Shown here: one piece after another, positions 734 to 63,831 of the stretch
Numbering within the stretch: the first letter of the stretch is position 1
Layout: each line of letters begins with the position of its first letter
Virus record (IMG/VR): IMGVR_UViG_3300049811_000251
Coordinates: 24,360 to 88,359 of that record
Length of the DNA: 64,000 bases
Reading direction: 5' to 3' (one strand)
From: a virus
Program-made: the position numbers and the translations under genes
The notes under the pieces: model-generated
Told to the model about the DNA's origin: nothing
The model's input: the letters and a program-made list of their open reading frames with translations, nothing else
Databases searched by the model: none

Positions 734-1750
734 TTAAATCTCCGGGAAAACGACCCCACTGAGGTCAAGGAATTGACGGTTTTTCTGTTGTCTTTCACAC
801 CACCTAGTCCAATGTTCAAAACTCATGTTTACGCCCCACTTTGTAAAGCAACTTACTCGGTGAGGGCACTTCTTAGCTCGCGTATCTTTTTCAGTTTTAC
901 ACGGTTGAAATACTTCCGGCAGTTTTCTATCTCTAATAGACTCCCAAACTATGCGTGCTTTTTGGCGTGCTTCGTACCACCAACTACTTGGAGCAGACCA
1001 TTGAATAATCTTACTGGCACAAGTATCACGCTCCATGTACCAGAAAAAAGTAGTCCTGATTCCGCTTAATCCTTGGTAAATAGCAGCCTGCATCTTATAG
1101 TAATCAGGAATATCACTTGATGACATTGTTTTCTTGTAAACATACGAATTTACTGTCTTGATCTCCAGTAAAGCGGTTTCTTTTCCTCCAACCGATTGGA
1201 GATCAGTACACAATTCCATAGCTTTACTGAAAATTTTGTTTTTCTTGCTTTCTAGGTATTGAAACCTAGATACGTCAATAATGCCGTCTGAATGTCCTGA
1301 AATTCTGTATAATGGGTGAAAGTAGGAAGGTTCTACATACAAATACGGAGGAGCTTCTTGCCTAGCGTTAGCTTCTAACGCATGTTCTGGATCAGGATGA
1401 AATCCTTCTACCGTTGAACCATCTCCTACTTTCAACCAAACTCCTTTCAAAATACCCATAGGCCCTAAAACTGAGTTTTGGATATAACTATGCAAGTGAG
1501 TTCCTATACTCATTGCAAAATAGGAACTAAAATTAAACGGCTTAGCTGGCTTAGGAGACCAGTAGTTTAATATAAACTCTCTAGGGCACAAATCACTTAT
1601 GCCACTAGCTCGTAATACAGTGCCAGCTTCTAGTTGAGTAGGCCACGCATCAACCCACTCTTTCACTACATTAACGAAGTTTTCGTACTTCTCTTTTTCA
1701 AGAGGTACTGAGGAAGCTGATAAAGTTCTATACGCATCAAGAATGCTCAT
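734..1750 (-). CDS. Cas4-like PD-(D/E)XK exonuclease
   Basis: S..SDLCPR, GHSDG, LLEIKT, QAAIY motifs and C-terminal C..C..C (PCKTEKDTRAKKCPHRVSC) consistent with an Fe-S staple. Confidence 0.8.
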   Translation of the reverse strand: MSILDAYRTLSASSVPLEKEKYENFVNVVKEWVDAWPTQLEAGTVLRASGISDLCPREFILNYWSPKPAKPFNFSSYFAMSIGTHLHSYIQNSVLGPMGILKGVWLKVGDGSTVEGFHPDPEHALEANARQEAPPYLYVEPSYFHPLYRISGHSDGIIDVSRFQYLESKKNKIFSKAMELCTDLQSVGGKETALLEIKTVNSYVYKKTMSSSDIPDYYKMQAAIYQGLSGIRTTFFWYMERDTCASKIIQWSAPSSWWYEARQKARIVWESIRDRKLPEVFQPCKTEKDTRAKKCPHRVSCFTKWGVNMSFEHWTRWCERQQKNRQFLDLSGVVFPEI

Positions 1751-2261
1751 TTTGTTTCGCCTTGTCCGTAGCTACCCAGAACTTTTCGTGAGTGCTTCCC
1801 CTAAATCCACCTTGAGTAAGAAACCCAGTTCTTACGAGGTTGTACCTGGCCCATCGAACTGTATTATGATCCAACCCTGTAAGTTGCATTAACTCCTTGT
1901 CAGTGCAACCAATTAAGGGAGTAGTAAGAACCTTGAAACCCTTTTTACAATGTTCCAAGATTCTTCGTTGCGTTTCTTTAGTAGAGACTTTAGAGTTAGG
2001 CTTAAGCCGTTCTTTTAATCCTCTAAGAACCTCGTCCAGTTTTTCCGCAAGGAATTCCTCTATTTCAACTTTAGTAATCAGCTCGGTAGGCTTAACAAAC
2101 TGCCTACCAATAATCTGAATTAAAGAGTCATCGAGAAAAGCCTTGATGACATATTCTTGAGTTTCTTCGGGAGGCTCGACTTGCCCTTCGATAGCCGTCT
2201 GGTCCAATTGATTGGAGAAATCGACTTCATCGAAGACCAACTCACCCTTAATAGCCATCAC
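1737..2261 (-). CDS. Hypothetical protein with C-terminal winged HTH
   Basis: TDKELMQLTGLDHNTVRWARYNLVRTGFL looks like a winged helix-turn-helix; overlaps neighbouring gene as in an operon. Confidence 0.55.
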   Translation of the reverse strand: MMAIKGELVFDEVDFSNQLDQTAIEGQVEPPEETQEYVIKAFLDDSLIQIIGRQFVKPTELITKVEIEEFLAEKLDEVLRGLKERLKPNSKVSTKETQRRILEHCKKGFKVLTTPLIGCTDKELMQLTGLDHNTVRWARYNLVRTGFLTQGGFRGSTHEKFWVATDKAKQNEHS

Positions 2262-2303
2262 AATTCTCCGAAGACGTGTAAAAGCGACAATCGCATTTTA
2301 CCG

Positions 2304-2687
2304 TCAACCTTCTTCGGAGTCAACGTTGACCAACTCAGTAAAAGTATCGAATGGAATCACAGCCCATCTCTTAGGTGTACCAACTCCGGCTGGAAGAGTT
2401 ATAACCAACGCAGGGGTTCTACCTTCCTCAGTAGCTTCTCTGGATATTTTAGCTAATGTAAGAAGGTCAAGTCTATAACTATCAAACGATGTTTCTTTTG
2501 ACTCAATCAAAAAATCCCTAGTCTTAACGTCCCCCTTATTTCGCATCCCCGCCCCCGAATTAGACTGAACCCTTCCGCCTAATTGAGAGGCTATCTCCTC
2601 CTCGGTTTGCCTAGCTTTTTGCTTAGCGGTTTTATTTTTCTTACCTATCTTGGTAAGACCTTCTATTCTTTTGTCACCGGCTGGCAT
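2304..2687 (-). CDS. Hjc-like Holliday junction resolvase (PD-(D/E)XK)
   Basis: EEEIASQLGGRVQSNSGAG..KGDV...FLIESKET pattern typical of phage Hjc-type resolvases. Confidence 0.7.
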   Translation of the reverse strand: MPAGDKRIEGLTKIGKKNKTAKQKARQTEEEIASQLGGRVQSNSGAGMRNKGDVKTRDFLIESKETSFDSYRLDLLTLAKISREATEEGRTPALVITLPAGVGTPKRWAVIPFDTFTELVNVDSEEG

Positions 2688-62715: not shown

Positions 62716-63116
62716 TACAAAGGCTCCACGTCTGTAAAATAGGAGGCGATTAACTCTTGATTAGTAAACACGTTACCTGTTGCTTGGGTTATGAAACGCA
62801 ACAGCTTGACTAATTCCTCTGAAGTATTGAATTCAGGGTCTTTGTACTGAATTTGATAAACTACCTCATAAACTCTTAAGATAGACCCTGATTCAAAAGA
62901 AGATTCAACTTGAAAACCCTTGCTTAGAAGCTCCTCCGCTCTTTTGTCACTTAAGGACCAATTAACGTACCTACTACGTTCTGTCACAGAGCACGCAGTA
63001 AGCTTACTTAATACTTGTTTAACTGGGTCAGTGTAGTCTAATACAGACTGCCAACTACGCAGCTTAACCCGCATAGTTAGTTCCAAACGATTGGAGGTAT
63101 CACTCGGTGCGAACAT
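62715..63116 (-). CDS. Hypothetical protein
   Basis: Operon-packed ORF. Confidence 0.55.
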   Translation of the reverse strand: MFAPSDTSNRLELTMRVKLRSWQSVLDYTDPVKQVLSKLTACSVTERSRYVNWSLSDKRAEELLSKGFQVESSFESGSILRVYEVVYQIQYKDPEFNTSEELVKLLRFITQATGNVFTNQELIASYFTDVEPL

Positions 63117-63276
63117 TTAATATCTCCATAGCCTTTAGATATTGTTTCGAGCTTAAGGTTCCTCCGAGTCTTTTGATGGCAATTAGATTATCTACAAAAT
63201 CTAACTCCCATCGAGTCAAGACTCCCTTATTTTTTAATTCTTTCAACTCTTCTAACAAACGTTCGTCGTCAGTCAT
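63100..63276 (-). CDS. Small hypothetical protein (58 aa, below ORF-track cutoff)
   Basis: Manual translation MTDDERLLEELKELKNKGVLTRWELDFVDNL...SSKQ...EILNVRTE*; fills the gap with overlaps at both ends. Confidence 0.65.
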   Translation of the reverse strand: MTDDERLLEELKELKNKGVLTRWELDFVDNLIAIKRLGGTLSSKQYLKAMEILNVRTE

Positions 63277-63551
63277 TGAGGAACCTCGTTAATCTCGGCG
63301 GTCAGTTCCGGCATAGTAAATCTACTAGCGGACCACACAGGTAGTTTATGAACTACCAACTCCATAGTGGAAGAGGGATTTAGCTTGGCTCTAAGGAGCA
63401 GCTTAAACCTAGGAGTTCCTTGAGAGGTTTTTCCGAGAAAAGTAATCTTATCAATTACTCCTCTAAAGTACCCGTTGTAGGAATATTTAACTCTGACCTC
63501 CATCCCAAGAGCCGCTTTGGCAAGCTTAGTCTGATTAACCGACATTCTCAT
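63273..63551 (-). CDS. Hypothetical protein
   Basis: Operon-packed ORF. Confidence 0.55.
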   Translation of the reverse strand: MRMSVNQTKLAKAALGMEVRVKYSYNGYFRGVIDKITFLGKTSQGTPRFKLLLRAKLNPSSTMELVVHKLPVWSASRFTMPELTAEINEVPQ

Positions 63552-63831
63552 TTAACACACCCTTTACAGCTTCCAAGTAATCCAACAATACTTTTTGCTG
63601 AATTACGTTTAGGTTAATTACTACGCTTAATGCTAAACTGTACGCATTAAGTCCGTCGATTTGAGCCTGCTCTAGATCAGGTTGGTTTAATAGAACTTGA
63701 ACTTTCTTATGTATGGTTTGCATAAGAAGTAGTTCATTGACTCCAACCGATTGGACGTTGTTTTCTACTAACTTAACCATAGCAGCTTGTAAAGGCTGCG
63801 ACATAACAATATCTGACTTAGGAATTGCCAT
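63535..63831 (-). CDS. Hypothetical protein
   Basis: Operon-packed ORF. Confidence 0.55.
   Translation of the reverse strand: MAIPKSDIVMSQPLQAAMVKLVENNVQSVGVNELLLMQTIHKKVQVLLNQPDLEQAQIDGLNAYSLALSVVINLNVIQQKVLLDYLEAVKGVLNENVG

What the first reader, a model, noticed from the sequence alone, without database searches (positions are those of the whole stretch)
1187..63755. Palindrome core is strand-polarised and never perfect
Seen: on the + strand the N4 spacer is CCGA 11 times versus its reverse complement TCGG twice, and TTGA 10 times versus TCAA 4 times. The right half GATTGGA (coding-strand TCCAATC) is the conserved half. The implied perfect palindrome TCCAATCGATTGGA never occurs: all three copies with a TCGA core (16472, 35153, 45514) carry an arm mismatch that destroys ATCGAT. 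Inference: a symmetric dimer site needs no polarity, so function may be directional (stoperator-like roadblock, or an mRNA hairpin with a UCRR loop). Loss of ATCGAT could reflect avoidance of a ClaI-like restriction site or CpG deamination of a methylated core (TTGA and TCAA are the two C-to-T products).
Basis: partly seen in the sequence, partly recalled or inferred. Interest (0 to 1): 0.68.

Follow-up and report, generated by a model that had tools for sequence, protein, structure and literature searches.

The report
Restriction avoidance forbids the perfect palindrome
A phage carries about a hundred copies of a 14-base palindromic docking site, and none is perfect because the perfect form would contain ATCGAT, a restriction-enzyme word this phage has purged from its whole genome; most of the reported strand bias comes from the reading frames the copies sit in.

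Summary
The window is part of a 102-kb uncultured siphovirus contig with nearly all genes on the minus strand. TCCAA-N4-TTGGA occurs 36 times in the window and 63 times in the genome, plus 44 one-mismatch copies.

"Never perfect" is confirmed and explained. ATCGAT is absent from the whole genome (17-21 expected), as are 24 other hexamer palindromes. Related phages with the same motif that tolerate ATCGAT do carry perfect TCCAATCGATTGGA. Relatives that lack ATCGAT do not. A sister motif, TGCAA-N4-TTGCA, shows the same rule.

The reported spacer polarity reproduces only if one-mismatch copies are counted. It falls to P=0.075 against a codon-aware null and is reversed in relatives. A different polarity is real and unexplained: C precedes and follows the site on the coding strand.

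The sites have dyad symmetry through their centre, are enriched at gene junctions, and are spaced more evenly than chance. Their sequence changes between lineages in step with a ParB/KorB/Noc-like protein encoded beside the terminase. Most likely they are that protein's binding sites.

This scan has noted similar phage palindrome arrays on other DNA. Binding and function are inferred, not shown.

The parts
1187..63755 (.). Array of 36 exact and 19 one-mismatch copies of TCCAA-N4-TTGGA. Coding-strand (minus) consensus is A-C-TCCAA-TCGA-TTGGA-C-T.
16472..16485 (.). TCGA-core copy TCCAGTCGATTGGA. The mismatch at arm position 5 removes ATCGAT.
35153..35166 (.). TCGA-core copy TCCAATCGAATGGA. The mismatch at arm position 10 removes ATCGAT.
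45514..45527 (.). TCGA-core copy TCCAATCGAATGGA. The mismatch at arm position 10 removes ATCGAT.
9516..9529 (-). Junction copy. On the coding strand a TAA stop is followed directly by the site, and the ATG follows 1 nt after it.
21036..21049 (-). Junction copy. The site starts 1 nt after a TAA stop, and the ATG lies 4 nt downstream of the site.
3792..3805 (-). Junction copy whose spacer GTAA holds the upstream gene's TAA stop. The ATG lies 4 nt downstream.
33424..33437 (-). Copy 1 nt after the capsid gene's stop codon, followed by an intrinsic terminator-like hairpin and T-run.
55422..55435 (-). Copy 4 nt after a TAG stop, followed by a separate AAGGAG Shine-Dalgarno and an ATG.
57848..57861 (-). 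Copy in a leader downstream of a TATAAT-like box, 7 nt before an ATG.
40297..41067 (-). Gene for a 256-aa ParB/KorB/Noc-like protein with a ParB_N CTPase-type fold. It is the candidate binder and is conserved beside terS in all genomes that carry the motif.
40254..40296 (-). Sigma-70-like promoter (TTGACA-N17-TATAAT) and AGGAG upstream of terS. It shows that the host uses canonical promoters and Shine-Dalgarno sequences. There is no palindrome here in this genome.

Best explanation
The element is a double-stranded DNA binding site with dyad symmetry. Its ideal form is (A)C-TCCAA-TCGA-TTGGA. It is scattered about once per kilobase over the phage genome and preferentially sits at cistron boundaries.

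It is most likely bound by a phage-encoded dimeric protein. The best candidate is the ParB/KorB/Noc-like protein encoded just upstream of the small terminase gene.

The ideal site contains ATCGAT. This phage, presumably under pressure from a host ClaI-type restriction enzyme, has eliminated ATCGAT together with two dozen other hexamer palindromes. Every copy therefore carries one escape change. The change is either in the 4-bp centre (TCAA, TTGA, TCGG, CCGA, TCGT) or in the arm base next to it.

Which escape change a copy carries, and on which strand, is largely dictated by the reading frame it lies in. That produces the apparent spacer polarity.

Shown: the counts, the avoidance, the comparative rule across relatives, the junction enrichment, and the fold of the candidate protein. 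Inferred: that a protein binds, that it is this protein, and what binding achieves. My guess at function is KorB-like genome-wide control of transcription along the single long transcription direction.
For: - ATCGAT is 0 v 17.5-21 expected in 102 kb. 25 of 64 hexamer palindromes are absent, and GCGC is 6 v 139.
- Spacer distance to TCGA is 0 for 0 copies, 1 for 42 and 2 for 16. The expected number of TCGA spacers is 10.65, so P(0)=2.4e-5.
- 9 of 9 TCGA-core copies are mutated at the inner arm base.

Natural experiment across relatives.
- Relatives with TerL 60-69% identical carry the same motif.
- The ATCGAT-free genomes (G000, L056, L057, L061) have no perfect copy among 87 sites.
- The ATCGAT-tolerant genomes L053 and L054 have 4 perfect copies among 14 sites (Fisher P=2.5e-4).
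- The sister motif repeats the rule. L062 tolerates ATCGAT and has GTGCAATCGATTGCAC. L064 has no ATCGAT and has only TCAA, CCAA and CCGT centres. The pair L062:7801 (TCGA) and L064:3989 (TCAA) shares its flanking sequence and looks orthologous.

DNA rather than protein or RNA reading.
- Copies lie in all three reading frames.
- The centre is palindromic in every lineage: TCGA, GCGC, ACGT, CCGG.
- No compensatory arm variants occur within the genome.
- The hairpin energy is only -3.4 kcal/mol and is essentially the same for the opposite strand.

Regulatory-type placement.
- 25 of 51 exact copies lie at junctions against 15% expected (P=2e-8). The same enrichment is seen in five relatives.
- Spacing has CV 0.63 (P about 1e-4).

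Candidate binder.
- Pfam ParB_N, E=7.5e-9.
- The model matches Noc and ParB at Z 14.3, rmsd 1.6 A. The KorB alignment runs over residues 7-154.
- The orthologue is present in all 7 TCCAA genomes. A 36%-identical clade (L062, L064) goes with TGCAA arms. It is absent from G001, which has a different motif.

Spacer polarity: 27 of 41 v 22.3 expected, P=0.075.
Against: No binding was tested, and DNA cannot be modelled with the tools at hand.

The protein has no Pfam-detectable HTH. Its C-terminal 100 residues are modelled with low confidence.

There are exceptions to the co-occurrence. L063 has TGCAA-GCGC-TTGCA with no detected orthologue in the 21.7 kb held or in the word-based protein search. 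L058 has an N-terminally shortened homologue and no iterated motif.

An 88-aa Cro/C1-type HTH protein elsewhere in the genome is an untested alternative binder.

A symmetric dimer does not explain two features. One is C on the coding strand at both flanks (46/77 and 39/77). The other is that the TCCAC arm variant appears almost only on the 5' arm in relatives (18 v 4).

The host and its restriction enzymes are unknown.
Confidence: 0.6

Rival explanations
1. The element acts in the mRNA. It forms a short hairpin at cistron boundaries whose 3' arm (UUGGA, often UUGGAG) is the Shine-Dalgarno of the next gene and whose 5' arm masks it. Ribosomes terminating on the upstream gene would open it (translational coupling), or an RNA-binding protein or RNase would recognise it.
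For: About half of the junction copies in G000 and relatives end 4-11 nt before a start codon with no room for another Shine-Dalgarno. Many copies start 0-8 nt after the upstream stop codon. In L057 the site is often followed by G, giving GGAG at the right distance. The flank polarity is strand-specific.
Against: Half or more of the copies in G000 are deep inside genes. In long intergenic regions several copies lie upstream of sigma-70-like promoters, so they would not be in the downstream gene's transcript. The hairpin energy is -3.4 kcal/mol and is essentially the same for the other strand. There are no G-U-compatible or compensatory variants. The loop being a palindrome in every lineage has no meaning for an RNA hairpin. 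In G000 a G after TTGGA is not favoured even at junctions (2 of 20).
Confidence: 0.15
2. The imperfect centres are decay products. The core CpG is methylated and deaminates (TCGA to TTGA or TCAA), with no selection against ATCGAT as such.
For: 20 of 42 single-step variants are TCAA/TTGA, the two C-to-T products. By my tally of the, 95 spacer counts, transitions make up 32 of the 42.
Against: CpG O/E is 0.84 with no excess of TG or CA. TCGA is at its expected frequency, 288 v 264-346. 22 other single-step variants change A or T. All 9 copies that keep TCGA have lost the flanking A or T instead. ATCGAT is absent everywhere in the genome, not only in sites. CpG-free palindromes such as ATTAAT, AGATCT and GTTAAC are absent too.
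Confidence: 0.08
3. The sites are directional transcription roadblocks of the stoperator kind. A bound protein stops or slows RNA polymerase coming from one side, and the asymmetric flanks set that direction.
For: Density is one site per 1-2 kb. Copies are enriched in short intergenic gaps and on start and stop codons. The flank and arm-variant polarity follows the coding strand. These traits match those described for Cluster A stoperators (PMC9283540).
Against: The site has dyad symmetry, whereas stoperators are asymmetric 13-mers bound by a monomer. No integrase or immunity repressor was seen among the roughly 60 proteins scanned. All genes share one strand, so transcription, replication and packaging directions cannot be told apart. 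The opposite-strand ORFs at the GC-rich ends are doubtful.
Confidence: 0.2

Closest known systems
Restriction-site (palindrome) avoidance in phage genomes
   Same: A specific hexamer palindrome is missing genome-wide against Markov expectation, along with many others. Different relatives avoid different sets of words.
   Different: Avoidance therefore removes the consensus form and leaves a ring of one-step variants. Neither the host nor the enzyme is identified.
Cluster O mycobacteriophage 17-bp dyad repeats (TGTTCGG-N3-CCGAACA; PMC4351075)
   Same: More than 30 copies per genome. The inverted arms are invariant and the centre is variable. Many copies are intergenic and about a third lie in genes. 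The authors predict binding by a dimeric protein. Function is unknown, and those phages also encode a ParB-like domain protein.
   Different: The sequence, arm length and host are unrelated. No forbidden-centre effect or flank polarity was reported there. In this family the sequence changes between lineages.
KorB-OB system of plasmid RK2, and Noc-NBS of Bacillus (ParB-CTPase family; PMC11790492)
   Same: A ParB-fold protein with many dispersed palindromic sites at variable distances from promoters, not used only for partition. The candidate protein's model aligns to KorB over residues 7-154 and to Noc at Z 14.3.
   Different: There are about 100 sites in 102 kb, against 12 OB sites on RK2. This is a lytic-type siphovirus. 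No KorA or ParA partner was seen. CTP binding and DNA binding were not tested. Exceptions to the co-occurrence exist.
Stoperators of Cluster A mycobacteriophages (PMC9283540, PMC6550527)
   Same: Similar density, placement in short intergenic gaps, and an orientation tied to transcription.
   Different: Stoperators are asymmetric 13-mers bound by a monomeric two-domain repressor in temperate phages. This site is a palindrome with only flank asymmetry.
Start-associated sequences of Cluster K mycobacteriophages (PMC3203893)
   Same: A conserved motif immediately upstream of start codons that includes the ribosome-binding bases.
   Different: Only about a quarter of the copies here sit at that distance from a start codon. 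Others hug stop codons or lie inside genes.

Membership tests
Restriction-site avoidance | The word is depleted genome-wide against composition and Markov expectation | tested here: met
   ATCGAT is 0 v 17.5 (first-order) and 21.0 (maximal-order) expected in 102,290 bp.
Restriction-site avoidance | Depletion is specific to palindromic recognition-type words | tested here: met
   22 of 57 hexamer palindromes with expectation of 8 or more are absent. Only 21 of 3,856 non-palindromes are absent, and most of those contain GCGC.
Restriction-site avoidance | Relatives not under that pressure carry the word and the perfect site | tested here: met
   L053 and L054 have 8 and 12 ATCGAT and 2 perfect sites each. 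L062 has 14 ATCGAT and a perfect sister site.
Restriction-site avoidance | The host encodes an enzyme that cuts the word | not testable with these tools
   The host is unknown. No close phage exists in GenBank.
ParB/KorB/Noc protein with dispersed palindromic sites | ParB N-terminal CTPase-type fold with the GxxR box | tested here: met
   PF02195 E=7.5e-9. The G-E-H-R residues are invariant. VIA Z is 14.1-14.3 at rmsd 1.6-1.9 A to Noc and ParB.
ParB/KorB/Noc protein with dispersed palindromic sites | Helix-turn-helix DNA-binding domain after the N domain | tested here: inconclusive
   Alignments to KorB, Noc and ParB-parS extend to residues 154-164, but there is no Pfam HTH and pLDDT falls after residue 150.
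ParB/KorB/Noc protein with dispersed palindromic sites | Protein and site co-occur and co-vary | tested here: inconclusive
   7 of 7 TCCAA genomes have the orthologue, and 2 of 2 genomes of the divergent clade have TGCAA arms. It is absent from G001. However, L063 has the motif without a detected orthologue, and L058 has a homologue without a motif.
ParB/KorB/Noc protein with dispersed palindromic sites | Sequence-specific binding, with CTP-dependent clamping | not testable with these tools
   This needs EMSA or ChIP and nucleotide assays.
Stoperator system (Cluster A mycobacteriophages) | Asymmetric site bound by a monomer | tested here: not met
   The site is a 14-16 bp palindrome. Only the flanks and one arm position are asymmetric.
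Stoperator system (Cluster A mycobacteriophages) | Orientation follows transcription | tested here: inconclusive
   Flank polarity follows the coding strand (27:2), but all reliable genes share one strand, so no contrast is available.
RNA hairpin element | Pairing is kept through compensatory or wobble changes | tested here: not met
   No other 5-N4-5 palindrome is enriched in the genome. By my reading of the list, one-mismatch copies show no wobble preference. Between lineages both arms do change together (TCCAA to TGCAA), which also fits a dimer.
RNA hairpin element | Stable, strand-specific structure | tested here: not met
   Energy is -3.4 kcal/mol for the coding strand and -3.5 for the opposite strand.

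The most novel reading that the evidence does not exclude
A whole family of ~100-kb uncultured siphoviruses uses lineage-specific iterated palindromes as loading sites for a ParB/KorB-like clamp. The clamp coats the genome and acts directionally on the single long transcription unit, and the coding-strand C flanks set that direction. In this reading, restriction pressure from the host forces the phage to run the system entirely on sub-optimal sites.
Probability: 0.2. Interest if true: 0.75.

Novelty: new variant of a known kind. Interest (0 to 1): 0.5.

Why it matters
The finding shows two selective forces colliding on the same 14 bases. One keeps a docking site. The other, escape from host restriction, forbids its best form.

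Related phages act as a natural experiment. Wherever ATCGAT is tolerated, the perfect site returns.

This gives a clean way to read the true consensus of such sites. It also warns that imperfect or strand-biased motif variants in compact phage genomes can be by-products of restriction avoidance and reading frame rather than signs of directional function.

The finding adds another case, with a named candidate protein, to the unexplained iterated dyad repeats of large phages such as the Cluster O mycobacteriophages. It also makes the perfect-versus-natural-site affinity question directly testable.

Tried and rejected
- Megablast of 12 kb against GenBank phages found no match. tblastn of TerL found only relatives at 24% identity or less.
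- A scan of IMG/VR for the 15-mer CTCCAATCGGTTGGA gave 39 single, chance-like hits. The only locus with two copies (L029) later proved to be the relative L053/L055.
- A CsrA homologue, present in relatives L056, L057 and L059, was sought in this genome and not found. It does not track the motif.
- Chi-like, primase-site and nick-site readings were considered. I set them aside because the motif is palindromic through its centre and hugs cistron boundaries. None was tested directly.
- A literature search for the sequence found only the synthetic VanO operator array (ATTGGATCCAAT), which shares half-site letters in the opposite order. I treat this as coincidence.
- I looked for a promoter at a fixed distance. 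The gaps from site to the -35 box are 6, 15, 22, 26 and 38 nt, so there is no fixed geometry.
- The search for an orthologue of the L062-type ParB protein on the L063 contig found none. That search is word-based and of limited sensitivity.
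Full report
CONTEXT. The window is bases 24360-88359 of a 102,290-bp IMG/VR virus contig that CheckV rates 78% complete. It encodes a tape measure, portal, large terminase, capsid, DNA polymerase, primase, DnaB-like helicase, RecA and ligase. Almost all genes lie on the minus strand. No close relative exists among GenBank phages.

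THE OBSERVATION: COUNTS. TCCAA-N4-TTGGA occurs 36 times in the window and 63 times in the contig, where 0.11 are expected. There are 44 further one-mismatch copies against 3.5 expected. The three TCGA-core copies at 16472, 35153 and 45514 are as described.

THE OBSERVATION: WHAT KIND OF SIGNAL. Copies lie in all three reading frames and encode SNxLD/E, QSxG or PxxW. The signal is therefore in the nucleic acid, not the protein. Spacing is more even than random, with CV 0.63 and P about 1e-4. Half of the exact copies sit at gene junctions against 15% expected (P=2e-8).

WHY NO COPY IS PERFECT: THE WORD IS FORBIDDEN. ATCGAT does not occur anywhere in the 102 kb, where 17.5-21 are expected. It is one of 25 hexamer palindromes with zero copies. 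GCGC is 6 against 139 expected. Among non-palindromic hexamers with similar expectation, almost none are missing apart from those containing GCGC. This is broad restriction-site avoidance.

WHY NO COPY IS PERFECT: THE HOLE AT THE CONSENSUS. Within the motif, 42 of 63 spacers are one step from TCGA, 16 are two steps away, and none is TCGA itself. Independent columns predict 10.65 TCGA spacers, so P(0)=2.4e-5. The nine copies that keep TCGA have all lost the adjoining arm base, which is the A or T that completes ATCGAT.

WHY NO COPY IS PERFECT: THE COMPARATIVE TEST. Phages whose large terminase is 60-69% identical carry the same motif.
- L056, L057 and L061 lack ATCGAT, as this genome does, and have no perfect copy.
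- L053 and L054 have 8 and 12 ATCGAT and carry two perfect TCCAATCGATTGGA each.
- The comparison is 0 of 87 against 4 of 14 (P=2.5e-4).
- A sister lineage uses TGCAA-N4-TTGCA and behaves the same way. L062 has 14 ATCGAT and carries GTGCAATCGATTGCAC. L064 has none and carries only TCAA, CCAA and CCGT centres.
- One pair, L062:7801 (TCGA) and L064:3989 (TCAA), shares its flanking sequence and looks orthologous.

WHY NO COPY IS PERFECT: DEAMINATION. General CpG deamination is not supported. CpG O/E is 0.84, TG and CA are not raised, and TCGA is at its expected frequency. It may still be the mutational path for the TCAA and TTGA copies.

THE POLARITY: THE SPACER. Paired tests on exact copies give 19:11 and 18:12 for the two spacer position pairs, which is not significant. 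I built a null in which each intragenic copy may carry its spacer or the reverse complement, weighted by the phage's codon usage. It predicts 22.3 of 41 copies in the 'TC kept' orientation, and 27 are seen (P=0.075). Junction copies are 12 of 22. TTGA makes a TGA stop in frame 0, which alone accounts for the TCAA excess. In the relatives the bias is reversed: I count CCGA 8 against TCGG 3 on the coding strand among the sites listed. The spacer polarity is therefore mainly a reading-frame by-product and is not a conserved property.

THE POLARITY: THE FLANKS AND ARM. A different polarity is real.
- On the coding strand the base before the site is C in 46 of 77 copies, against a 27% background.
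- The base after the site is also C in 39 of 77 copies, against a 13% background. Dyad symmetry would predict G there.
- In relatives, the arm variant TCCAC occurs 18 times on the 5' arm against 4 times for its mirror image.
- I have no tested explanation for this. All reliable genes share one strand, so transcription, replication and packaging directions cannot be separated.

WHAT THE ELEMENT IS: DNA SITE RATHER THAN RNA HAIRPIN.
- The centre is itself palindromic in every lineage of this phage family: TCGA, GCGC, ACGT, CCGG.
- The arms are invariant, with no compensatory variants within the genome.
- The RNA hairpin would be worth only -3.4 kcal/mol, essentially the same as the opposite strand's -3.5.
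- These points favour a double-stranded site read by a two-fold symmetric protein.

WHAT THE ELEMENT IS: LINEAGE-SPECIFIC SEQUENCES. Different lineages carry different palindromes at equivalent places. Many start just after a stop codon and lie ahead of a sigma-70-like promoter. Examples are TCCAA-N4-TTGGA, TGCAA-N4-TTGCA, GTGAAC-CCGG-TTTCAC in G001 and CCGCACACGTGTGCGG in L059. That pattern is expected of a site co-evolving with its binder.

WHAT THE ELEMENT IS: THE CANDIDATE BINDER. The best candidate is the 256-aa protein encoded beside the small terminase gene.
- It matches Pfam ParB_N.
- Its model (mean pLDDT 78.5) superposes on Noc and ParB at Z 14.3 and on KorB over residues 7-154.
- Orthologues are present in all seven TCCAA genomes. 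A clade 36% identical goes with the TGCAA arms. G001 lacks it.
- In four of seven genomes a copy lies within about 35 nt of that gene's stop codon.
- Caveats: no HTH is detected by Pfam. L063 has the TGCAA motif with no detected orthologue. L058 has a shortened homologue and no motif. A Cro-like HTH protein is an untested alternative.

THE MAIN RIVAL. About half of the junction copies end 4-11 nt before a start codon, so that GGA serves as the only possible Shine-Dalgarno. Many others begin 0-8 nt after a stop codon. That would suit a coupling hairpin in the mRNA. The intragenic majority, the copies upstream of promoters, the weak stem and the palindromic loop all speak against it.

KNOWN RELATIVES OF THE IDEA.
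- The Cluster O mycobacteriophage 17-bp dyad repeats have more than 30 copies, a third of them in genes. Their function is unknown, a dimeric binder is predicted, and a ParB-like protein is present (PMC4351075).
- KorB with its dispersed operators on RK2 is a second analogue (PMC11790492).
- Stoperators share density, placement and orientation, but they are asymmetric sites bound by a monomer (PMC9283540).
- This scan has already noted similar palindrome arrays with ParB/KorB-like candidates in other phage genomes.
- What is particular here is the forbidden consensus and its comparative proof.

LIMITS. Binding, CTP dependence, the host and its restriction enzymes are all untested.

Noticed in passing
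whole contig G000 (window 1-64000 included): Extreme avoidance of restriction-type words. 25 of 64 hexamer palindromes are absent, GCGC is 6 v 139 expected, and RGATCY is fully absent. Each relative avoids a different set of words, which suggests hosts with many different R-M systems.
   Followed up: partly
L002-L008 (G001), L059, L062-L064: Other lineages of the same ~100-kb phage family carry their own iterated palindromes at equivalent junction positions: GTGAAC-CCGG-TTTCAC, CCGCACACGTGTGCGG and TGCAA-N4-TTGCA. L058 shows none.
   Followed up: partly
L050:8737-9335 and 10139-11097 (contig 96.7-99.1 kb); contig 1-4.7 kb: The GC-rich contig ends (52-54% GC v about 40%) hold tandem repeats: GCATTACGTG x8.7, CCGTCGGGGCCGCGT x17.8, and several 9-24-nt arrays. 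There are also poly-G runs and overlapping ORFs on both strands. Coding status and function are unclear.
   Followed up: no
L050:4468-4734 (-), contig 92468-92734: An 88-aa Cro/C1-type HTH protein sits among small early-type genes. It is an alternative candidate binder of the palindromes.
   Followed up: no
window 33345-33400 (-): A strong intrinsic terminator-like hairpin with a T-run lies just downstream of the capsid gene and of the palindrome at 33424.
   Followed up: no
L056:12197-14950 and 16067-19714: In one relative the large terminase (917 aa) and portal (1215 aa) are enlarged, with precomputed faint LAGLIDADG and intein-splicing Pfam hits. This suggests inteins.
   Followed up: no
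L056:1785-1946, L057:1-36, L059:807-995: Relatives encode a small CsrA homologue. None was found in this contig.
   Followed up: partly
L048:9604-11859, L049:1112-3664: Five tRNA genes (Thr, Val, Lys, Ser, Met) lie outside the window on the minus strand.
   Followed up: no
window 41055-50616 and relatives L051, L053, L058, L061, L062: The sugar-nucleotide operon (DegT aminotransferase, epimerase/dehydratase, SDRs, methyltransferase, GT-like 455-463-aa protein) upstream of the ParB-like gene is conserved across the family. This includes L058, which lacks the palindrome.
   Followed up: no
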